DNA of 8,237 nucleotides from the UHGV virus genome UHGV-0217139; one strand, 5' to 3'. The stretch is from a virus. This document shows, in pieces, positions 1-8,237 of this stretch. The notes under the pieces are model-generated. The model worked only from the letters and a program-made list of their open reading frames with translations. It searched no databases and was not told the DNA's origin. Made by a program: the position numbers and the translations under genes. The first letter of the stretch is position 1; each line of letters starts with the position of its first letter.

Positions 1-126
1 GGCATAACCTGAATCTGAGGCAGCACCTGGCACGGCTGGGACGGAAGTCGCTGTCGTTTTCAAAATCGGTGGAGCTGCATGACAAAGTCATCGGGCATTA
101 TCTGAACATAAAACACTATCAATAAG

Positions 127-615
127 TTGGAGTCATTACCGGAAATCTCAACATTTTCAACTGTAAGAAACTTGTCCCATAGTCCACATAAGCATGTCCT
201 CCCTTTTGGTTTTGTTCAATCTCCAATACTTGCAACCCTCTGCTTAGATAAAAGTTATTTTGGTAGCTTACTACGCCGATTGAACAAACATCATGATCTC
301 AAGCTAAGTGTGTTTATGGATGATGTGATCATCTCGTCAAACGATTTGGCCCAATTACAAGCGGCTTACGACGAAGCACTAGTGGCAATGCGCAAATCTG
401 GTTATCAAGCCAACATGAGTAAAACTCAGGCACCATCGTCAAAGATTAGCGTGTTTAATTTAACTTTGAGTAAGGGAGTTATGAAAGTCACATCTCAGAA
501 AATGAGTGACTTCCTGATTGATTTCTATTCAAGCAATTATGAGCCGCACAGAATAGGGGTCAAAAACTACGTCGAAGCTGTTAATCCAGGGCAAGCGAAA
601 CTCTTTAAGTTGTAA
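127..615 (+). CDS. Reverse-transcriptase-like palm-domain fragment (motifs B to E only), N-terminally truncated; possibly a pseudogene
   Basis: Translation contains LPFGFVQSPILATL (RT motif B-like, LPQG...SP.L), then ~20 aa later SVFMDDVIIS (motif C, YxDD-like with FMDD), then KSGYQANMSKTQ and FNLTLSKG (motif D/E-like G..N..KT and FLG). No motif A is present; the frame is closed by stops at 103-105 and 109-111 and the first possible start is TTG at 127 with no convincing RBS. Composition is visibly AT-richer than the P4 core. Confidence 0.5.
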   Translation: MESLPEISTFSTVRNLSHSPHKHVLPFGFVQSPILATLCLDKSYFGSLLRRLNKHHDLKLSVFMDDVIISSNDLAQLQAAYDEALVAMRKSGYQANMSKTQAPSSKISVFNLTLSKGVMKVTSQKMSDFLIDFYSSNYEPHRIGVKNYVEAVNPGQAKLFKL

Positions 616-880
616 TTGCGATCGCATGTAGTAGCAACTGGGCTTGACTGAATGCCTGCCGCCATTTTGCCGCCACTACCAAAGAAAAAAGGGCTACGCT
701 TTCACGTAACCCCTTGATTTATTTGGGGGCTGGCGGAGTTTGAATAAATAATGTATTGCTTTGATTTTTAATGATTTTGTTTAATTCAGTTTTTGTGCGT
801 ATACCTAATCGTATACCAATGGCTGTAAGTTAATGTGAAATGAAAGCGCATTTTTACTTGGATTGATGCTATATCGTACA

Positions 881-1187
881 GGAAAAAAATTTTTTTTCGA
901 AAGAACTGTTCACACTGTTCACCTTTCTTTTTTCTCCTTTTATTTCAGAGTGATAGGTGGTGAATAATGGGTGAAGGGTGAACATTCGATTCTTCACCTC
1001 CGGCATTCTGCCGGTGTGACTCATACCGGTGATTAATCCCCCATACTGAAATCACACAGGGAGAAAAAAAAGTTTTTTTTGATTTGATTGTTCACACTGT
1101 TCACCTTTCGTTTTTCTCTTTTAATTTCAGTGTGATAACGGGTGAATATACGGTGAAGGGTGAACAGTGGATTGTTCACCTTCGGGG
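881..1187. repeat. crr: P4-type cis replication region (crr): two ~125-bp direct repeats (881-1003 and 1061-1187) with type I iteron octamers
   Basis: The two units are highly similar and start 180 bp apart. Each begins with an A/T tract (A7T8 / A8GT8) and carries TGTTCACAC-TGTTCACC (907-923; 1089-1105), inverted GGTGAA-type copies (956-983; 1140-1166) and a further TTCTTCACC/TGTTCACC (990-998; 1173-1180). As I recall, P4 crr is two 120-bp repeats separated by 60 bp that bind alpha protein via TGTTCACC iterons. Position just 3' of alpha fits. Confidence 0.75.
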
Positions 1188-1195
1188 GATGTCGG

Positions 1196-1223
1196 GATAA
1201 AAAAAGACCGGCAGATGCCGGTC
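1196..1223 (-). terminator. Rho-independent terminator of the alpha operon
   Basis: Inverted repeat GACCGGCA/TGCCGGTC at 1206-1223 (GC-rich stem, short loop) followed on the minus strand by a run of 7 U (plus-strand A run 1199-1205), 8 nt downstream of the alpha stop codon. Confidence 0.7.
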
Positions 1224-1230
1224 AGGTGGG

Positions 1231-3564
1231 TCAGGCTGTTGTAGGGTCGTCACATTTTGGCAGCCAGTCGCCGTAGCTTTCCTCTTTCAGCGTCAGGTTG
1301 GTCTGTATCCCCTGTTTGGTATGGCGCTTCTCGTAATTCAGCCCGTATTCCTTCAGCATCACCGGCAGCCCCAGCCCGAACATTTTCAGACTGAGTACAT
1401 TCCGGTAGCCGTTTGCCTCCATGTAGGCCAGATAGGCGTGATAGAGGTATTTACGGTAATTACGCGGGATGATACTGGCGTTCCCCATATACATGCCGCT
1501 GGTCTGCGGCAGGGTTTCCAGATAGCCGATAAAATCAAACGTCGGGTCGGCATCCCGTTTGATGTTCAGCGCCTCGTCTGAGTTCTGCTGGGACTGAAGC
1601 AGTGACCGGGCGAGCATCGGGTCGCTGAACTTCTGCATCAGGTGACGCACGATGACCGCCAGCTCGCGGGTGATTTTGTCCTTAAGCTGCGGGTCGCGCT
1701 CCTGCGGGGCTATCTGTTCCGGGAAGTGAATAATCACCCGCCGGCGTGACACGCCGCCGCTGCGGTCGGTGAAGCGCATCGGGTTATTGTTCACGGCCAG
1801 AATCACCGCCGGGATATGCGTGGAGTACGCATCCCGGTATTTCGGATCCACGGACACCGCATCGCCGCCGGTGATGGCCTTGAGTCCGGCACCGTCGCCG
1901 CTCCATTTTTCCTGGTCCGGCAGGCGTATCAGTGAGAAGCCAGTTAACGCGGCACGTTCACGCGGGGATTCCAGCGTCTCAATGGTGGCCGACGTGGCGT
2001 TATCCTCCCCGGCCAGCAGGGTGGCTATTTCGGCCATGATACTTTTGCCGCTGCCGCCGGGACCGGTCACCTCCAGAAAGAGCTGCCAGTCGTAGCGGTT
2101 TGCCAGCACCATAAACAGTGCGGCCAGAATCACGTCGCGTTTTTCCGCACGGCCACCGGCGGCACGGTCAAGCCAGCGCCAGAACGCGGGGGCGTGGGTT
2201 TCCAGCGTTTCCCCTTCCACCGGCGGGGTGAAATCCACATCGCACAGGGTACGCATCCAGTGTGACGGACTGTGCGGGTGGAACGTGCCGTTCTGCGTGT
2301 CGAGCACGCCGTTACGAAAGCCAATCAGGCAGCGGGAGGGGGCTTCCTGCTGCGGAATAATCAGCTTCAGGGTGTCCACCACGGAGGCCACCTTCCCGGA
2401 GGAGAACGGCGCGCGCAGCCGCTGAAACAGCCCGGCCACATCCCGGGCAAAGTCCTGTGGTGGCAGCACCTTCCAGACACCATTTTCATAACGGGACAGA
2501 AGCTGGCCGTTGGCATCGACCGCGAGCGCCTCGCCGTAATGCTCATAGATACGCATGGCCTTTTCGCTGGTACTCATGGCGGAAAACTCCGCTTCGCTCA
2601 TGGTGTCGAACGGGCTTTCAGCCGGTGGCCGGATGGCATCATAAATGGCCTTACGGGTGGCTTCCCCGCCGTACTGCGTGAAGGCATCATTCCAGTCACC
2701 GAAGACCGGCGGCAGGGCAACAACACCTTCACACGCATCTGCGGCTGCGGCGGCTTTTTTCTGGCCGTCACCGCTGAGGTCACGGTCAGCAGCAAGGACT
2801 ATCTGACAGGCCGGATGCTTCTGCCGGGCAAGGCTGGCCAGAGAAAGGAGGTTCACGGAAGAAAGCGCCACCATCACCGTTTCACCGGTCAGGTGATGTA
2901 CGGTAAGTGCGGTCGCGTATCCCTCCGCTATCCACAGACGTTTTCCGGCCTGATTCTGTCCTTCAAGGATGTGACAGGTGCCCCTGACCTGTCCGCCTTT
3001 CAGGGTGCGCTTACGGCCGTCAGCACTGATTAACTGAAGGTTAACCAGTGCGCCGCTGTCGTCATACAGTGGCACCACAAGGTCACCGGCGCGCCAGCTC
3101 ACGCCACCGGCTCTGTGTGTGCCGGTCAGCATCCGGCATTCCCGGCCGGGAAAGCCCTTGCGGGTCAGGTAGGCGTTACCGGTTCCGGGACGGGTTTTTG
3201 CCATCAGGGTTTGTGCCAGTGCGGCGGCGTTCTTCCGGGCAGCGTCTGTTTCAGCAACGGCGGCGGCCGTCACTGCCGGGTCAGCCGGGGGCAGACTGCC
3301 GGTCACGGCAGCCACCTTTGCGGCCGCGTCGGACGGGGAGACACCAAACACCTTTTCAACCAGTTTCAGGCCGTCACCGGCACCACACTGATTGCAGTAC
3401 CAGGTGCCGCGCCCCTCCCTGTCATCAAAACGGAAGCGGTCACTCCCGCCACAGACCGGACAGGGCTGATGACGGTTCTTCAGCACCTGAATCCCCAGCG
3501 CCGGGAGAATACGCGGCCAGTGGCCGAGCGCATGGCTGACGGTGGCGGTTACGTTCATTTTCAT
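1231..3564 (-). CDS. alpha: P4 alpha-type bifunctional DNA primase / helicase (replication initiator)
   Basis: 777-aa ORF. N-terminal zinc-binding primase motif CPVCGGSDRFRFDD...WYCNQCG and Walker A GPGGSGKS in the C-terminal half. RBS AAGGAGA 8 nt upstream of ATG. Length equals P4 alpha as I recall it (777 aa). Followed by crr iterons. Confidence 0.9.
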   Translation of the reverse strand: MKMNVTATVSHALGHWPRILPALGIQVLKNRHQPCPVCGGSDRFRFDDREGRGTWYCNQCGAGDGLKLVEKVFGVSPSDAAAKVAAVTGSLPPADPAVTAAAVAETDAARKNAAALAQTLMAKTRPGTGNAYLTRKGFPGRECRMLTGTHRAGGVSWRAGDLVVPLYDDSGALVNLQLISADGRKRTLKGGQVRGTCHILEGQNQAGKRLWIAEGYATALTVHHLTGETVMVALSSVNLLSLASLARQKHPACQIVLAADRDLSGDGQKKAAAAADACEGVVALPPVFGDWNDAFTQYGGEATRKAIYDAIRPPAESPFDTMSEAEFSAMSTSEKAMRIYEHYGEALAVDANGQLLSRYENGVWKVLPPQDFARDVAGLFQRLRAPFSSGKVASVVDTLKLIIPQQEAPSRCLIGFRNGVLDTQNGTFHPHSPSHWMRTLCDVDFTPPVEGETLETHAPAFWRWLDRAAGGRAEKRDVILAALFMVLANRYDWQLFLEVTGPGGSGKSIMAEIATLLAGEDNATSATIETLESPRERAALTGFSLIRLPDQEKWSGDGAGLKAITGGDAVSVDPKYRDAYSTHIPAVILAVNNNPMRFTDRSGGVSRRRVIIHFPEQIAPQERDPQLKDKITRELAVIVRHLMQKFSDPMLARSLLQSQQNSDEALNIKRDADPTFDFIGYLETLPQTSGMYMGNASIIPRNYRKYLYHAYLAYMEANGYRNVLSLKMFGLGLPVMLKEYGLNYEKRHTKQGIQTNLTLKEESYGDWLPKCDDPTTA

Positions 3565-3578
3565 GGTGTTGTTCTCCT

Positions 3579-3899
3579 TCAGTGCAGTACCGGCGCTTTT
3601 ATGTGACGGGCACAGAGTTCATCCATCACAACCAGCCCGAGAAAGGACAGCGACGGCGCGGCCTTCAGGGGGCCGGATTCCATTAAATCTTCCAGCAGGG
3701 CACAGGCTATCTGACGCCCTTTTTCCTCACCGTGCTGGCGCAGATAAAAGCCCTCCAGCTCAGCGGCGATGGCCGCCTCCAGTGATTCAAGGGTGAGATG
3801 CGGGTAGCGGTGCTGACGTTCGCACACGGTCAGCCAGGCACAGGCGACAGCACGACGGTAAAGGGCTGCGCGTAAGACGGGCGGTAAGGGTGTTTTCAT
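3579..3899 (-). CDS. P4 orf106-like small protein of the left operon (function unknown)
   Basis: 106-aa ORF directly upstream of alpha on the same strand; RBS GGGAGGA 6 nt before ATG; stop 15 nt before alpha start. Length and position match P4 orf106 as recalled. Confidence 0.6.
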
Positions 3900-4034
3900 T
3901 TGCTTTCCTCCCTGTGACAGATGACTGCATTCCGTGCCGGTTGCATTAACTGATAAGGCATATCTGCGTCTCCTGAAGACGTGCGTATCCCTGCGCGAAT
4001 ACGCACATTTAATTTTTCGGGTGTCGTTTTTTAA

Positions 4035-4490
4035 TTACAGATAATTGCGGTAACTGTTATCCGGGGTGATTTCCGGGTCAGGCTCCGTGCGGGGAATTTC
4101 CCGCCATTCCCGCGCCACCGGTGCCGCCCGGCTGACCGGAACAGGGTCCTGCGGGTAAATATCCAGATATTTCTCCCGCCATTTCTGTAATTCCGGGTCT
4201 CCGGCCATTTCTTTCAGTACCGCATGCCGGTTTACGGGGCTGCGTTTAAACAGGTCAGGACGGTCACAGGTAAATTCCCGCAGAAAACGCCCCAGCGGGA
4301 TGTCTGTGGTGCGCCCGTCGGCGAGGATACGCACAAGGATACTGAATTTACGGCGGTACGGGTTCCAGACAATGTCCGGGCAGCGGTACGGCATTTCCCA
4401 CGGAATACCGTCTTCCAGAATGCCGACCACGGCCACATCGGGAAAACCGGCAGAACGGTAAATCTCACCGGGCTGGGGAAAATCAAACAT
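4035..4490 (-). CDS. P4 orf151-like protein (function unknown)
   Basis: 151-aa ORF; its ATG overlaps the epsilon stop by 8 nt (operon coupling). Length and position match P4 orf151 as recalled. Confidence 0.6.
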   Translation of the reverse strand: MFDFPQPGEIYRSAGFPDVAVVGILEDGIPWEMPYRCPDIVWNPYRRKFSILVRILADGRTTDIPLGRFLREFTCDRPDLFKRSPVNRHAVLKEMAGDPELQKWREKYLDIYPQDPVPVSRAAPVAREWREIPRTEPDPEITPDNSYRNYL

Positions 4491-4770
4491 GCGTCCTGTC
4501 TCCCCGGTCTTTCTGCTGGGCGAGAAAATCGCGGCACAGGCCTTTGGCTTTCAGCTCATTCAGCACAAAATCAATATCTTCATTCAGGTAGCTGAAAATA
4601 TGCGGAATGTAGAGCTGATGCAGGCCGGAGAGTTCACGGTGAATCAAATCACCCCCAACAAACTGGGATACGGCGCTGGCGCGGTTGAGCTTATGGTAAG
4701 CCTCAATGCTGAGGTGTTCACAGGCGTCATGACGCGCTGAGACGGTCTGAGGGGCTTTTTTATTACGCAC
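4483..4770 (-). CDS. epsilon: P4 epsilon-like protein (helper-prophage derepression), GTG start
   Basis: The track gives a 175-aa ORF, but the in-frame GTG at 4770 has a GGAGG RBS 6 nt upstream and yields exactly 95 aa, the size I recall for P4 epsilon. The upstream in-frame part overlaps kil/eta in another frame. Confidence 0.55.
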
Positions 4771-4960
4771 GGGACACCTCCACCACCGGCAGACGGGCAG
4801 CAAGGGAGAGCACATAGTCACGGACAAAGGAACGGCGGGCACTGCGTTCATCACCGGCGACGGTGCGAAGCATACAGATACGGGGATGACGGTCTGCGCG
4901 ACGGACAGCCGCAAACACAAAGACAAATTCAGGGTGTGAGGGGGTAAGGGTTGTAGCCAT
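4763..4960 (-). CDS. kil: P4 kil-like 65-aa protein (C-terminal in-frame part of eta)
   Basis: ATG at 4960 preceded by a strong RBS AAGGAGG (7-nt spacer); 65 codons to stop at 4763-4765; overlaps the epsilon start by 8 nt. P4 kil is described as a 65-aa product forming the terminal part of the eta ORF. Confidence 0.6.
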
Positions 4961-5338
4961 AAGGCAGCCTCCTTCGAGTAGCAAATAACTGCTATCGCCG
5001 GAGTTCTCACGCTCGATGGCGATAGCCCAGACGGGGGTGAGAATACCGGCCTCGAAGAATACCGGCCAGCCCGGAGGCTGCCCCGCCTGAGCTACCATTG
5101 ACTCAGTGGCATAACATGCGATTGCGAACAGGATCATACCTGCACGGCAAACCACACGCCACACCATAATCTGGCGCTCTGTGGCGTTGATTGCGACACA
5201 AAAAAAGACGCATGGCGCGTCATATGTCGCCTTCGAGTTACACGGGTTCTCACGCCCGGCTGCCGATTTTGCGGCAACGGAAAGACTATATCCGCAAATG
5301 CCGGTCTGAGGATGAGTCTCCTGTGTCAGGGCTGGCAC
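4763..5338 (-). CDS. eta: P4 eta-like ORF (long form containing kil in frame)
   Basis: 191-aa ORF in the same frame as and ending at the same stop as kil; P4 eta is recalled as ~197-199 aa, starting upstream of the early promoter. The start codon is uncertain. Confidence 0.4.
4990..5300 (-). promoter_or_regulatory. P4-type immunity / early-left leader region (candidate P_LE, seqA/seqB/seqC-like motifs, CI RNA locus); boundaries unresolved
   Basis: Exact 10-mer GTTCTCACGC occurs twice (5003-5012 and 5246-5255), with a partly complementary GGGGGTGAGAATACCGG at 5033-5049. Hairpin GCTATCGCC(4991-4999)/GGCGATAGC(5018-5026) encloses the first copy in its loop. An 11-bp direct repeat GAATACCGGCC lies at 5041-5051 and 5057-5067. 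A -10-like TATAGT sits on the minus strand at 5285-5290. The pattern fits the P4 CI-RNA antisense immunity arrangement, but I cannot place the RNA ends. Confidence 0.35.
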
Positions 5339-5339
5339 A
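5322..5339 (+). promoter_or_regulatory. Delta/Ogr-type activator site (TGT-N12-ACA) at about -55 of the sid late promoter
   Basis: TGTgtcagggctggcACA; the dyad centre is ~82 bp upstream of the sid ATG, consistent with a transcription start near 5385 and a ~27-nt leader. P2/P4 late promoters carry TGT-N12-ACA centred near -55. Confidence 0.55.
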
Positions 5340-5359
5340 TCTGCAATGCGTCGTGTTGT

Positions 5360-5377
5360 TGTCCGGTGTACGTCACA
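5360..5377 (+). promoter_or_regulatory. Second TGT-N12-ACA dyad, ~38 bp downstream of the first (possible promoter-proximal Delta site)
   Basis: TGTccggtgtacgtcACA; centre ~17 bp upstream of the start predicted from the first dyad. I recall P4 Psid having a second Delta site near -18, but this is from memory. Confidence 0.4.
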
Positions 5378-5411
5378 ATTTTCTTAACCTGAAGTGACGA
5401 GGAGCCGGAAA

Positions 5412-6146
5412 ATGTCTGACAACACCATCCCTGAATATCTGCAACCCGCACTGGCACAACTGGAAAAGGCCAGAGCCGCCCACCTTGAGAACGCCCGACT
5501 GATGGATGAGACCGTCACGGCCATTGAACGGGCAGAGCAGGAAAAAAATGCGCTGGCGCAGGCCGACGGAAATGACGCTGATGACTGGCGCACAGCCTTT
5601 CGTGCAGCCGGTGGTGTCCTGAGCGACGAGCTGAAACAGCGCCACATTGAGCGCGTGGCACGCCGGGAGCTGGTACAGGAATATGACAATCTGGCCGTGG
5701 TGCTGAATTTTGAACGTGAACGCCTGAAAGGGGCGTGTGACAGCACGGCCACCGCCTACCGGAAGGCACATCATCACCTTCTGAGTCTGTATGCAGAGCA
5801 TGAGCTGGAACACGCCCTGAATGAAACCTGTGAGGCGCTTGTCCGGGCAATGCATCTGAGCATTCTGGTACAGGAAAATCCGCTCGCCAACACCACCGGC
5901 CATCAGGGCTACGTCGCACCCGATAAGGCTGTCATGCAGCAGGTGAAATCATCGCTGGAACAGAAAATTAAACAGATGCAAATCAGCCTCAGCGGCGAGC
6001 CGGTTCTCCGGCTGACCGGACTGTCAGCGGCAACACTTCCGCACATGGATTATGAGGTGGCAGGCACACCGGCACAGCGCAAGGTGTGGCAGGACAAAAT
6101 AGACCAGCAGGGAGCAGAGCTTAAGGCCAGAGGACTGCTGTCATGA
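5412..6146 (+). CDS. sid: P4 Sid external scaffold (capsid size determination) protein
   Basis: 244 aa from ATG 5412 with RBS GAGGAG upstream (the track ORF begins at an upstream GTG, giving 250 aa). N-terminus MSDNTIPEYLQPALAQLEKARAAHLENARLMDETV matches P4 Sid as recalled; coiled-coil-like composition; stop overlaps the delta start (ATGA). Confidence 0.85.
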   Translation: MSDNTIPEYLQPALAQLEKARAAHLENARLMDETVTAIERAEQEKNALAQADGNDADDWRTAFRAAGGVLSDELKQRHIERVARRELVQEYDNLAVVLNFERERLKGACDSTATAYRKAHHHLLSLYAEHELEHALNETCEALVRAMHLSILVQENPLANTTGHQGYVAPDKAVMQQVKSSLEQKIKQMQISLSGEPVLRLTGLSAATLPHMDYEVAGTPAQRKVWQDKIDQQGAELKARGLLS

Positions 6147-6643
6147 TTTACTGCCCGTCGTGTGGACATGTTGCTCACACCCGCCGCGCACATTTCATGG
6201 ACGATGGCACCAAGATAATGATTGCACAGTGCCGGAATATTTATTGCTCTGCGACATTTGAAGCGAGTGAAAGCTTTTTCTCTGACAGTAAAGATTCAGG
6301 AATGGAATACATTTCAGGCAAACAGAGATACCGCGATTCACTGACGTCAGCCTCCGGCAGTATGAAACGCCCGAAAAGAATGCTTGTTACCGGATATTGT
6401 TGTCGGAGATGTAAAGGCCTTGCACTGTCAAGAACATCGCGGCGTCTGTCTCAGGAAGTCACCGAGCGTTTTTATGTGTGCACGGATCCGGGCTGTGGTC
6501 TGGTGTTTAAAACGCTTCAGACCATCAACCGCTTCATTGTCCGCCCGGTCACACCGGACGAACTGGCAGAACGCCTGCATGAAAAACAGGAACTGCCGCC
6601 AGTACGGTTAAAAACACAATCATATTCGCTGCGTCTGGAATGA
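6143..6643 (+). CDS. delta: P4 Delta late-gene transcriptional activator (tandem Ogr-like zinc finger)
   Basis: 166 aa; two Cys4 zinc-finger modules (CPSCGH...CRNIYC and CRRCKG...CTDPGCG); translationally coupled to sid; same length as P4 delta as recalled. Confidence 0.85.
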   Translation: MIYCPSCGHVAHTRRAHFMDDGTKIMIAQCRNIYCSATFEASESFFSDSKDSGMEYISGKQRYRDSLTSASGSMKRPKRMLVTGYCCRRCKGLALSRTSRRLSQEVTERFYVCTDPGCGLVFKTLQTINRFIVRPVTPDELAERLHEKQELPPVRLKTQSYSLRLE

Positions 6644-6716
6644 GGGCTGCCGGTTAACACCGGCCGTCGCCGCACACCGTATTTTTATTCTTCAGCATGA
6701 TGAGAAAGAGATAACG

Positions 6717-7289
6717 ATGGAAAGCACAGCCTTACAGCAGGCCTTTGACACCTGTCAGAATAACAAAGCAGCATGGCTGCAACGCAAAAATGAGCTGGCA
6801 GCGGCCGAACAGGAATACCTGCGGCTTCTGTCAGGAGAAGGCAGAAACGTCAGTCGCCTGGACGAATTACGCAATATTATCGAAGTCAGAAAATGGCAGG
6901 TGAATCAGGCCGCCGGTCGTTATATTCGTTCGCATGAAGCCGTTCAGCACATCAGCATCCGCGACCGGCTGAATGATTTTATGCAGCAGCACGGCACAGT
7001 ACTGGCGGCCGCACTGGCACCGGAGCTGATGGGCTACAGTGAACTGACGGCCATTGCCCGAAACTGTGCCATACAGCGTGCCACAGATGCCCTGCGTGAA
7101 GCCCTTCTGTCCTGGCTTGCGAAGGGGGAAAAAATTAATTATTCCGCACAGGATAGCGACATTTTAACGACCATCGGATTCAGGCCTGACGCGGCTTCGG
7201 TGGATGACTGCCGTGAAAAATTCACCCCTGCGCAGAACATGATTTTTTCGCGTAAAAGTGCGCAACTGGCATCACGTCAGTCTGTGTAA
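6717..7289 (+). CDS. psu: P4 Psu polarity-suppression (Rho antagonist) / capsid decoration protein
   Basis: 190 aa; RBS AAGAG 6 nt upstream; last gene of the sid-delta-psu operon and directly followed by cos, as in P4; length matches P4 Psu as recalled. Confidence 0.85.
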   Translation: MESTALQQAFDTCQNNKAAWLQRKNELAAAEQEYLRLLSGEGRNVSRLDELRNIIEVRKWQVNQAAGRYIRSHEAVQHISIRDRLNDFMQQHGTVLAAALAPELMGYSELTAIARNCAIQRATDALREALLSWLAKGEKINYSAQDSDILTTIGFRPDAASVDDCREKFTPAQNMIFSRKSAQLASRQSV

Positions 7290-7453
7290 AATTCCCCGAA
7301 AACCCGCTTGTTTTTACTGAAAAAAGCCATGCATCGATAAGGTGCATGACTTTGCATGCGTTTTCCCGCCCCATTATCAACAAAACACGCCATTCCCGGC
7401 GCGGCCTGAGCGTGTCAGTGCAACTGCATTAAAACCGCCCTGCAAAGCGGGCG

Positions 7454-7472
7454 GGCGAGGCGGGGAAAGCAC
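7454..7472. other. cos: cos site: 19-nt P2/P4-type cohesive-end sequence
   Basis: Exact GGCGAGGCGGGGAAAGCAC, the 19-nt 5' cohesive end sequence of P2 and P4 as I recall it, located ~165 bp downstream of psu where P4 cos lies. Confidence 0.75.
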
Positions 7473-7780
7473 TGCGCGCAAATGTTGATGTGTTCAATTT
7501 TTTCAAAGTCTGAGAGCGCAATTGAGTTTGCTCGCTTCATCTACGACAATAAGTTAGAGTAGTGATTAGAAAGGGGAATGTTTAATATTATTGAGTTAAA
7601 GTTATTTTTGTGTTTTTGGATGACTCTATTGATGTGTTTATGATAGTGTTATTTTTACGGAGTGGATGGAGGATTAATTTCATTTAATGCATTAACATAA
7701 TGCATGTGTTTTAATGTGGCTGTTAAATATTGTGGCGGTTTTTTAGGCTATAAAAACATTTGTGTGCTTCTTATTTTTTT

Positions 7781-8237
7781 TTATTTATATTTTTGTGGGG
7801 TAATTTCAACATATGAAGAAGCGAACCATTCTACAGGTTTTTTGTTTTTCAATTCTTCTGTGTCAAAATTATCATCTGGTGTTGACCTAAATGTAATATA
7901 ATAAACGCCTGGCTTATTTAATCCAACAATATAGCTAAGGGTTTTTTCTGCTCCTATTAAAACATGTGTCTTTGATAATGATTTACTTTTTGATTCTGGA
8001 TAGTGTTTTTTATCTCTCAAAGATGTATAGAGATTTGGTGTAAAAGATTGAGATTGTTCAACTTTATCGCCATTTGCGCTTACTTTGTACACAGTTAAAG
8101 CTCCTTTGGATGTGTCAAAGGATAATGGTCGTTTGCCGTTATTTTTTATGGTTACATTAATAATCATTCCTAGCTGTGTTTTTAACGGGATAACATTAAT
8201 AGCAATACTGCTAGAGTCAGTGCCCTTAATTTGCTCT
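7781..8237 (-). CDS. 3' part of a cargo gene of unknown function in the post-cos variable region; 5' end lies beyond the window
   Basis: The minus-strand frame stays open from the window edge (8236) to the TAA at 7781-7783, giving 152 codons; the M at 8167 in the ORF track is internal. Very AT-rich codon usage unlike the P4 core. Sequence (…VYYITFRSTPDDNFDTEELKNKKPVEWFASSYVEITPQKYK) matches no family I recognise. Confidence 0.55.
   Translation of the reverse strand, partial: EQIKGTDSSSIAINVIPLKTQLGMIINVTIKNNGKRPLSFDTSKGALTVYKVSANGDKVEQSQSFTPNLYTSLRDKKHYPESKSKSLSKTHVLIGAEKTLSYIVGLNKPGVYYITFRSTPDDNFDTEELKNKKPVEWFASSYVEITPQKYK

What the first reader, a model, noticed from the sequence alone, without database searches (positions are those of the whole stretch)
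7454..7472. Exact P2-type cohesive-end sequence: packaging by a P2-family helper is implied
The 19-mer GGCGAGGCGGGGAAAGCAC is present intact downstream of psu. If my recollection of the P2/P4 cos sequence is right, the element, including whatever cargo lies beyond, can be packaged by a P2-like terminase and spread horizontally.
Basis: partly seen in the sequence, partly recalled or inferred. Interest (0 to 1): 0.35.

Follow-up and report, generated by a model that had tools for sequence, protein, structure and literature searches.

The report
P2/P4 cos site in crippled satellite
The 19-base sequence is the well-known DNA-packaging (cos) site shared by phage P2 and its satellite P4, but this satellite copy has lost its replication origin and excision gene, so it probably cannot spread.

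Summary
GGCGAGGCGGGGAAAGCAC occurs once, at 7454-7472. It is identical to the cohesive end that opens the P4 record and to the annotated cosL/cosR of P2. It lies in the intact ~57-bp conserved cos core (about 7424-7480), 164 bp after psu, exactly as in P4. Window 884-7453 is P4 4291-11624 at 97.8% identity, so 7453|7454 is the P4 circular junction.

The element is a P4-like satellite integrated at ssrA. Its cos marks the border with the AT-rich variable defence hotspot, whose two-gene cargo is already catalogued. All of this is textbook (Ziermann & Calendar 1990; Rousset et al. 2022).

The inference that the element can be packaged and spread is only partly supported. This copy has a 757-bp deletion, with its junction at 5299-5304. 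The deletion removes the alpA/vis gene, all six ori iterons and the early/late promoter region. None of 5,426 complete E. coli genomes has this deletion, but a near-identical NCBI draft contig does. P2-type packaging uses excised, closed circles, so this cos is probably stranded.

To the left, a degenerate ssrA att copy abuts the last gene of a P2-like prophage, which is cut by IS1 at the contig end. Whether a helper is present is unresolved. Interest is low.

The parts
7454..7472 (+). 19-nt cohesive-end sequence GGCGAGGCGGGGAAAGCAC. By analogy with P2/P4, the staggered nicks would fall at 7453|7454 on the top strand and 7472|7473 on the bottom strand.
   Evidence: It is an exact and unique match. 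It is identical to P4 1-19 and to the annotated cosL/cosR of P2. The window-to-P4 alignment stops exactly at 7453 = P4 11624. The nick positions are inferred from the ends of those records; they were not measured here.
7424..7480 (.). Conserved cos core of about 57 bp: TGCATTAAAACCGCCC-N8-GGGCG | 19-mer | TGCGCGC(A). It corresponds to the '55-bp core' of P2-family cos sites.
   Evidence: A three-way alignment with the circularised P4 and P2 junctions shows this block conserved. In a profile of 114 unique IMG/VR cos regions, the window deviates at 1 of 50 conserved positions: -13 C>T, a variant found in 10 of 114. The 55-bp core is cited to Ziermann & Calendar 1990 in PMC5694545 and PMC2231350.
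7435..7454 (-). Inverted repeat CCGCCC/GGGCGG with an 8-nt loop, inside the left half of the cos core. On the - strand it is followed by TTTTAA and looks like a terminator.
   Evidence: (I6). The loop positions (-16 to -10) are the variable ones in the survey, while the arms are >=90% conserved. No function was tested.
6717..7289 (+). psu, the last conserved satellite gene before cos.
   Evidence: The ORF is. Pfam Psu scores 9.8e-89. It matches P4 psu at 10888-11460.
7481..8237 (-). Start of the variable hotspot. It holds about 300 bp of AT-rich spacer, then the 3' part of a 217-aa cargo gene that begins beyond the window end.
   Evidence: GC falls from about 0.5 to about 0.3 after 7500. Matches to hundreds of E. 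coli satellites stop at 7478-7489. The cargo genes are seen in L002, L003 and L009. The 367-aa partner hits PADLOC PDC-S02 at 2.7e-18. WP_001493296 is listed in a supplementary table of Rousset 2022 as half of a two-gene locus.
5299..5304 (.). Junction (microhomology TGCCGG) of a 757-bp deletion equivalent to P4 8719-9475.
   Evidence: The window joins P4 8718 to 9470/9476, and L002 13168 to 13920. The deleted interval holds P4 ORF88 ('excisionase and transcriptional regulator'), the ori type-2 repeats and six ori type-1 repeats. The same deletion is in the NCBI contig SZVK01000058.1 (L009). It is in none of 5,426 complete E. coli genomes.
5322..5339 (+). TGT-N12-ACA motif (TGTGTCAGGGCTGGCACA) upstream of sid, kept 17 bp beyond the deletion junction. 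It is the presumed Ogr/Delta activator site of Psid.
   Evidence: The sequence is read directly. The assignment as the late-activator site rests on established knowledge of P2/P4 late promoters and was not tested.
5412..6643 (+). sid (5412-6146) and delta (6143-6643), both full length.
   Evidence: Ogr_Delta 6.9e-22.
5015..5291 (-). Immunity RNA region: C4/CI RNA at 5015-5102, with the isrK and c4-a1b1 target elements at 5201-5291. The region is retained, but the deletion starts 13 nt upstream.
   Evidence: Rfam matches above the gathering score. The wild-type sequence upstream has TTGCCT-18 nt-TATAGT, and the deletion replaces the -35 part. That this is the early promoter is my inference.
1231..3564 (-). 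alpha primase/helicase gene, intact at 777 aa.
   Evidence: Pfam Toprim_3, D5_N, Pox_D5.
884..1183 (+). crr (cis replication region) with its TGTTCACC-type iterons retained.
   Evidence: It aligns to P4 crr at 4291-4590. The iterons are at 907-1173.
723..747 (.). Degenerate copy of the 3' end of ssrA (TTGGGGGCTGGCGGAGTTTGAA). It is the left att junction of the satellite.
   Evidence: Compared with the real ssrA ends in L002 and L006 and with the equivalent copy in L002 at 8588. The genuine ssrA lies beyond the integrase on the other side, in L002, L003 and L009.
141..722 (+). Right end of a P2-like prophage: the 3' part of a reverse-transcriptase-domain gene (ORF 127-615) plus the sequence up to att.
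   Evidence: It is 99% identical to the region that follows gpD and ogr of a P2-like prophage at ssrA in E. coli CV839-06. Pfam RVT_1 scores 3.1e-16.
1..140 (+). 3' end of IS1, which cuts the RT gene. It probably marks a contig end.
   Evidence: It matches IS1 in L003 and in phage RCS47. The related contig L009 also ends inside this IS1.

Best explanation
Window ~7424-7480 is a genuine, sequence-intact P2/P4-type cos site. In a working element, the terminase of a P2-family helper recognises this core on a closed circular copy of the satellite. It makes staggered nicks (7453|7454 top, 7472|7473 bottom) that leave 19-nt 5' cohesive ends, and threads the DNA into a Sid-shrunken P2 capsid. Here the site belongs to a P4-like satellite integrated at the 3' end of ssrA. 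Its order is att - crr - alpha - epsilon - immunity RNA - [deletion] - sid - delta - psu - cos - two-gene defence-candidate cargo - int - ssrA. The cos marks the border between the conserved satellite backbone and the variable hotspot. In this particular copy a 757-bp deletion between two TGCCGG repeats has removed alpA/vis, the whole ori iteron cluster and the promoter region of the left operon. The copy therefore most likely cannot excise or replicate, and so cannot offer the terminase its normal substrate. The cos is intact because the damage is recent: the rest of the element is 99.6-99.9% identical to intact relatives.

Shown: the sequence identities, the deletion and the gene content. 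Inferred: cleavage by terminase, and the loss of mobility.
For: The 19-mer is unique and identical to the P4 and P2 cohesive ends. The core flanks are conserved against P4, P2 and 114 unique cos regions, matching 49 of 50 conserved positions. Window 884-7453 is P4 4291-11624 at 97.8%, ending exactly at the P4 genome end. The ssrA context with int and cargo is seen in L002, L003, L007 and L009. Published work places the hotspot next to the shared cos and states that P4 packaging uses closed circles cut at a 55-bp cos. The deletion was mapped against P4 and two genomes. It removes the features annotated in the P4 record as excisionase/regulator and the ori repeats. The 88-aa Phage_AlpA gene is present in intact relatives L007, L008 and L010 and missing in L009. 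All six ori iterons are absent, while the crr iterons are present. The deletion is shared by an independent NCBI contig, so it is not a one-off misassembly. It is private to this lineage.
Against: No experiment shows that this cos is cut, or that the element is immobile. A co-resident related satellite could supply AlpA/Int in trans, and an excised non-replicating circle might still be packaged at low frequency; plasmids that carry only P4 cos are packaged. The integrase here is of the ssrA type, not the P4 type, so its dependence on AlpA is inferred from P4 Vis and from my recollection of CP4-57. The functional limits of cos from the deletion analysis of Ziermann & Calendar could not be read. 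Only conservation supports the claim that the flanks suffice.
Confidence: 0.75

Rival explanations
1. One reading: this is a fully functional cos in a mobilisable satellite. On infection by, or induction of, a P2-family helper, the whole element with its cargo is excised, replicated, packaged and transferred.
For: The cos core is intact. sid, delta, psu, alpha, epsilon and crr are full length. The Psid activator motif is retained. Int and both att copies are present in the same lineage. Intact relatives with the same cargo exist. The length of about 10.3 kb suits P4-size heads, since cosmids of 5-10 kb are packaged.
Against: alpA/vis, all ori iterons and the region upstream of the immunity/left operon are deleted. 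In P4, ori is required in cis for replication (established knowledge; ori is annotated). Vis is annotated as the excisionase and described as the recombination directionality factor.
Confidence: 0.15
2. A domesticated remnant. The host keeps the dead satellite because Psid-sid-delta-psu and the hotspot cargo still interfere with incoming P2-like and other phages. The chromosomal cos would act, if at all, as a decoy or cleavage target for the invader's terminase.
For: The deletion stops 17 bp short of the Psid activator motif and leaves sid, delta and psu intact. The cargo hits a PADLOC defence-candidate family. The deletion is inherited in at least two assemblies.
Against: Near-identity to intact relatives (99.6-99.9%) means there has been too little time to show selection for retention. 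The lineage is rare, with none among 5,426 complete genomes. There is no evidence of any decoy effect.
Confidence: 0.08
3. The 19-mer is the cos of a P2-like prophage, or a chance or assembly artefact, rather than a satellite cos.
For: A P2-like prophage end lies in the same window at 141-722. The +27 to +65 flank looks somewhat more P2-like than P4-like.
Against: The 100 bp to the left are 91% identical to P4 and unlike P2 beyond -30, and psu is 164 bp upstream. The shuffles gave no chance match. The same arrangement is found in hundreds of genomes.
Confidence: 0.02

Closest known systems
cos of satellite phage P4 (NC_001609/X51522, junction 11624|1)
   Same: The 19-mer is identical. 91 of the 100 bp to the left are identical. 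It has the same position 164 bp after psu and the same backbone (97.8% over 6.5 kb).
   Different: Base +20 is T, as in P2, where P4 has C. There is one substitution at -13. The sequence diverges from P4 after about +29. P4 carries gop/beta/cII there, while this element carries an AT-rich spacer and a two-gene PDC-S02-like cargo. The integrase/att module is of the ssrA type, not the P4 type. This copy lacks vis and ori.
cos of phage P2 (NC_001895, cosL 1-19 / cosR 33575-33593) and other Peduoviridae
   Same: The 19-mer is identical and the core from about -30 to +26 is conserved. The +27 to +65 flank is weakly similar (ATTTTTTCA..GTCTGAG.GCGC).
   Different: Beyond -30 the left flank is unrelated. 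In P2, cos lies between old/tin and Q; here it lies between psu and the satellite hotspot.
P4-like satellites with a cos-adjacent defence hotspot (Rousset et al. 2022; de Sousa & Rocha 2021)
   Same: The psu - cos - variable cargo - int layout is the same. Conserved sequence ends a few bases after the cohesive end. One protein of this two-gene cargo is listed in their table.
   Different: This copy is an alpA-less variant made by a clean 757-bp deletion that also takes ori. The alpA-less variants they describe are mostly frameshift pseudogenes.
Phage lambda cos
   Same: It works alike: a terminase recognises a specific site and makes staggered nicks that leave 5' cohesive ends (established knowledge; general description).
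   Different: There is no sequence relationship. Lambda has 12-nt ends and packages from concatemers, whereas P2/P4 use monomeric closed circles.

Membership tests
P2/P4-type cos site | The 19-nt cohesive-end sequence GGCGAGGCGGGGAAAGCAC | tested here: met
   19 of 19 bases match the P4 and P2 records.
P2/P4-type cos site | A conserved core of about 55 bp around the cohesive end (Ziermann & Calendar 1990, as cited) | tested here: met
   The block from -30 to +26 is conserved against P4 and P2. 49 of 50 positions that are >=90% conserved match in a survey of 114 sites. The core definition is cited second-hand.
P2/P4-type cos site | Cleavage by P2-family terminase (gpM/gpP) to give 19-nt 5' overhangs | not testable with these tools
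   This needs in vitro cleavage or sequencing of virion DNA ends.
P2/P4-type cos site | The site is presented on a closed circular monomer (an excised, replicating element) | tested here: not met
   alpA/vis and all ori iterons are deleted. The substrate requirement comes from the literature. The loss of mobility is inferred, not measured.
P4-like satellite (seven core components of de Sousa & Rocha 2021) | psu, sid, delta, alpha and epsilon are present in the conserved order | tested here: met
   L009 shows Psu, Ogr_Delta, the 244-aa Sid, Derepression (epsilon) and the 777-aa primase.
P4-like satellite (seven core components of de Sousa & Rocha 2021) | An integrase next to the hotspot | tested here: met
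   It lies outside the window, but it is present in the near-identical contig L009 (407 aa; Phage_integrase 4.1e-30) next to ssrA.
P4-like satellite (seven core components of de Sousa & Rocha 2021) | alpA (vis/orf88) | tested here: not met
   It is deleted in the window and in L009, and present as an 88-aa Phage_AlpA gene in L007, L008 and L010. The element therefore counts as an alpA-less (Type B) variant.
P4 replicon | Both cis elements, ori and crr, are present together with alpha | tested here: not met
   crr and alpha are present. The ori type-1 and type-2 repeats are absent.

The most novel reading that the evidence does not exclude
A satellite that can neither replicate nor excise has kept a perfect cos, a helper-inducible sid-delta-psu operon and a defence cargo, directly beside the stump of a P2-like prophage. 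The chromosomal cos might then be used in situ by an incoming P2-type terminase. It could act as a decoy or suicide cut that aborts the infection, or as a start point for packaging the adjacent cargo-int-ssrA region.
Probability: 0.05. Interest if true: 0.55.

Novelty: already known. Interest (0 to 1): 0.12.

Why it matters
The finding confirms a textbook feature. P4-like satellites carry the helper's cos, which is what lets them, and the defence genes in the adjacent hotspot, travel in P2 capsids. The useful lesson for a genome scan is a caution: an intact cos does not show that an element is mobile. Here the cis-acting origin and the excision regulator are gone, so the cargo is probably fixed in this lineage. 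The IS1-cut P2-like prophage end next to the satellite, and an intact satellite-helper tandem in another sample, add a small data point on helpers and satellites sharing the ssrA site.

Tried and rejected
- **Chance match:** rejected. No match arose in 200 shuffles, and the conserved flanks are present.
- **cos of a P2 prophage rather than a satellite:** rejected. The left flank is P4/psu.
- **The deletion as an assembly artefact:** unlikely. An NCBI contig that differs from the window at a few bases has the same junction.
- **Reading Ziermann & Calendar 1990 for the functional limits of cos:** the paper is not held, so the 55-bp core is cited second-hand.
- **tRNA or tmRNA in the window:** none was found. 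The att copy at 723-747 is too degenerate and short.
- **Finding the exact source genome among complete E. coli genomes:** it is not there.
- **P2-like similarity of the right flank (+27 to +65):** the local alignment score has a median of 15 against P2-like sites and 8 against P4-like sites. Shuffled controls reach 11-18, so this is only suggestive.
- **Helper prophage in the two closest complete genomes:** the cos query found one place in each. A combined cargo plus P2-terminase query found a second place in each that the tool did not locate. The result is inconclusive.
- **Helper prophage in the window's own genome:** not testable, because the contig ends in IS1.

Full report
**1. The observation**

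GGCGAGGCGGGGAAAGCAC is present once in the window, at 7454-7472 on the + strand. No other site matches with up to two mismatches, and none of 200 dinucleotide-preserving shuffles produced a match. It lies 164 bp after the stop codon of a 190-aa ORF at 6717-7289, which is Psu (Pfam 9.8e-89).

**2. Is it the P2/P4 cohesive end?**

Yes.
- The P4 reference record NC_001609 begins with exactly these 19 bases.
- The P2 reference NC_001895 annotates bases 1-19 as 'cosL; left cohesive end' and 33575-33593 as 'cosR'. Both have this sequence.
- A megablast of the whole window against phage records aligns window 884-7453 to P4 4291-11624 at 97.8% identity. The alignment ends at the last base of the linear P4 genome. 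Window 7453|7454 is therefore the closed P4 cos junction.

**3. Flanking signals**

I joined the ends of P4 and of P2 in silico and aligned 240 bp around the site.
- All three sequences share a block from about -30 (TGCATTAAAACCGCCC...) through the 19-mer to +26 (TGCGCGC). This is window ~7424-7480.
- The block corresponds to the ~55-bp core of P2-family cos sites. That core is attributed to Ziermann & Calendar 1990 by PMC5694545, PMC2231350 and PMC9122126. The original paper is not held.
- Left of the core the window follows P4 (91 of 100 bases identical) and is unrelated to P2.

For a wider test I collected every IMG/VR stretch with the exact 19-mer.
- Fifty positions between -40 and +33 are >=90% conserved in this set.
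- The window carries the consensus base at 49 of them.
- The exception is C>T at -13, a variant present in 10 of the 114 regions, including 4 P4-like ones.
- It lies in the loop of a CCGCCC/GGGCGG inverted repeat whose arms are conserved.

**4. What the element is**

The window is a P4-like satellite. From left to right it contains:
- crr at 884-1183;
- alpha at 1231-3564 (-);
- orf106, orf151 and epsilon;
- the C4/CI immunity RNA and its targets at 5015-5291 (-), with Rfam matches above the gathering score;
- sid, delta and psu;
- cos;
- then AT-rich DNA, where GC falls from about 0.5 to about 0.3.

753 of 5,426 complete E. coli genomes contain at least 80% of the window. Most of their alignments stop at 7478-7489, a few bases beyond the cos core. 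[quoted passage not shown]

Two complete genomes (S1-INA-02-B and Ec1120) and several other contigs carry the same continuation. After cos come a 217-aa and a 367-aa gene on the - strand, then an integrase, then ssrA.
- The 367-aa protein hits the PADLOC candidate family PDC-S02 (2.7e-18).
- The 217-aa protein, WP_001493296, is listed in a supplementary table of Rousset et al. as half of a two-gene ('hypothetical + hypothetical') locus.

The exact 19-mer also occurs in 38 stretches of species-representative genomes. These are mostly Enterobacterales: Escherichia, Salmonella, Klebsiella, Raoultella, Kosakonia, Dickeya and others.

**5. What is unusual in this copy**

Compared with P4 and with the two closest genomes, the window lacks 757 bp. 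Window 5304 corresponds to P4 8718, and window 5299 also corresponds to P4 9470, with the hexamer TGCCGG present at both ends of the missing segment.

In the P4 record the missing interval (8719-9475) contains:
- ORF88, annotated 'excisionase and transcriptional regulator' (Vis/AlpA);
- the three ori type-2 repeats;
- all six ori type-1 repeats.

A motif search confirms that the TGTTCACC-type iterons survive only in crr (907-1173). The ori cluster is gone.

Intact relatives (L007, L008, L010) encode the 88-aa Phage_AlpA protein between sid and the Ash-family ORF. The NCBI contig SZVK01000058.1 of assembly GCA_005280595.1 (L009) lacks it and matches window 65-8237 at 99.9%, with the same junction. 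No complete E. coli genome has the junction. The deletion is therefore real, inherited and rare.

On the sid side the deletion stops 17 bp before a TGT-N12-ACA motif (5322-5339), which I take to be the Ogr/Delta site of Psid (assignment from established knowledge). On the other side it starts 13 nt upstream of the a1b1/isrK match. There it replaces the -35 part of a TTGCCT-18 nt-TATAGT promoter-like sequence. That this is the early promoter is my inference.

**6. Consequence for the interpretation**

P4 packaging uses covalently closed circles that are cut at cos (PMC2231350). Producing such circles requires excision and, normally, alpha/ori/crr-dependent replication. That ori is needed in cis is established P4 biology, which I cite from memory (Flensburg & Calendar 1987; Ziegelin et al. 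1993). Vis is annotated as the excisionase in the P4 record and is described as the P4 recombination directionality factor.

Without alpA/vis, without ori, and probably without the left-operon promoter, this copy most likely cannot deliver a packaging substrate. The cos is perfect because the damage is recent: the rest of the element is 99.6-99.9% identical to intact relatives.

Rescue in trans, or low-level packaging of a rare excised circle, cannot be excluded. Plasmids that carry only P4 cos are packaged.

**7. Helper prophage**

The window itself holds a clue.
- Bases 141-722 are 99% identical to the segment that follows gpD and ogr at the right end of a P2-like prophage integrated at ssrA in E. 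coli CV839-06. This segment is a reverse-transcriptase-domain gene plus the sequence up to att.
- A degenerate copy of the ssrA 3' end at 723-747 joins it to the satellite.
- The RT gene is cut by IS1 (1-140), and the related contig also ends inside that IS1. Whether the rest of the helper lies beyond cannot be seen.
- An intact sister satellite sits in tandem with P2-like tail genes in another sample (L008).

In the two closest complete genomes, the cos query found only the satellite's own site. A combined cargo plus P2-terminase query reported a second, unlocated match in each. That result is inconclusive.

**8. Verdict**

The site is a bona fide member of a long-known class, at its known position in a very common element. 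Its inference of mobility holds for the family but probably not for this copy. Novelty: already known. Interest: low.

Noticed in passing
window 5299-5304 (junction); equivalent to P4 8719-9475: A 757-bp deletion between two TGCCGG hexamers removes alpA/vis, all ori iterons and the promoter region of the left operon. It stops 17 bp short of the Psid TGT-N12-ACA motif. It is shared with NCBI contig SZVK01000058.1 and absent from 5,426 complete E. coli genomes.
   Followed up: yes
window 1-747: IS1 (1-140) cuts a reverse-transcriptase-domain gene (ORF 127-615). In other strains this is the last gene of a P2-like prophage integrated at ssrA. A degenerate ssrA-end att copy (723-747) joins that prophage end directly to the satellite, so helper and satellite were, or still are, in tandem at one att site.
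   Followed up: partly
L008 13065-21744: In a Logan assembly (ERR15416028), an intact sister satellite with the identical alpha protein is followed directly by P2-like tail genes (gpD, gpU, tape measure, tube, sheath). This is a satellite-helper tandem.
   Followed up: no
window 7435-7454 (- strand): The left half of the conserved cos core forms a 6-bp GC hairpin followed by TTTTAA on the - strand. It looks like an intrinsic terminator facing the cargo/int genes, which are transcribed towards cos. The variable positions of the core fall in its loop.
   Followed up: partly
window 7481-7518: The first ~45 bp beyond the core resemble the right flank of P2-like phage cos sites (ATTTTTTCA..GTCTGAGAGCGC) more than that of P4. 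This hints at past exchange across cos. The alignment scores overlap the shuffled controls, so the evidence is weak.
   Followed up: partly
window 7779-8237 (- strand) and L009 4024-5785: The hotspot cargo is a 367-aa protein that hits the PADLOC candidate defence family PDC-S02, with a weak type II REase hit, plus a 217-aa protein with no family. Among complete E. coli genomes, only two carry this cargo.
   Followed up: partly
L009 758-8266 versus L007: Between two sister elements, the smpB-ssrA-int-cargo-psu-sid half is 98.5% identical while the alpha half is 99.9% identical. This suggests recombination within the element or at the att/int side.
   Followed up: no
NZ_CP145662.1 and NZ_CP126598.1 (genomes of L002 and L003): Each genome shows a second match to a query made of the cargo plus 1 kb of the P2 large-terminase gene. 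Each has only one P2-type cos by megablast. They may hold a divergent P2-family prophage, but the second match was not located.
   Followed up: no
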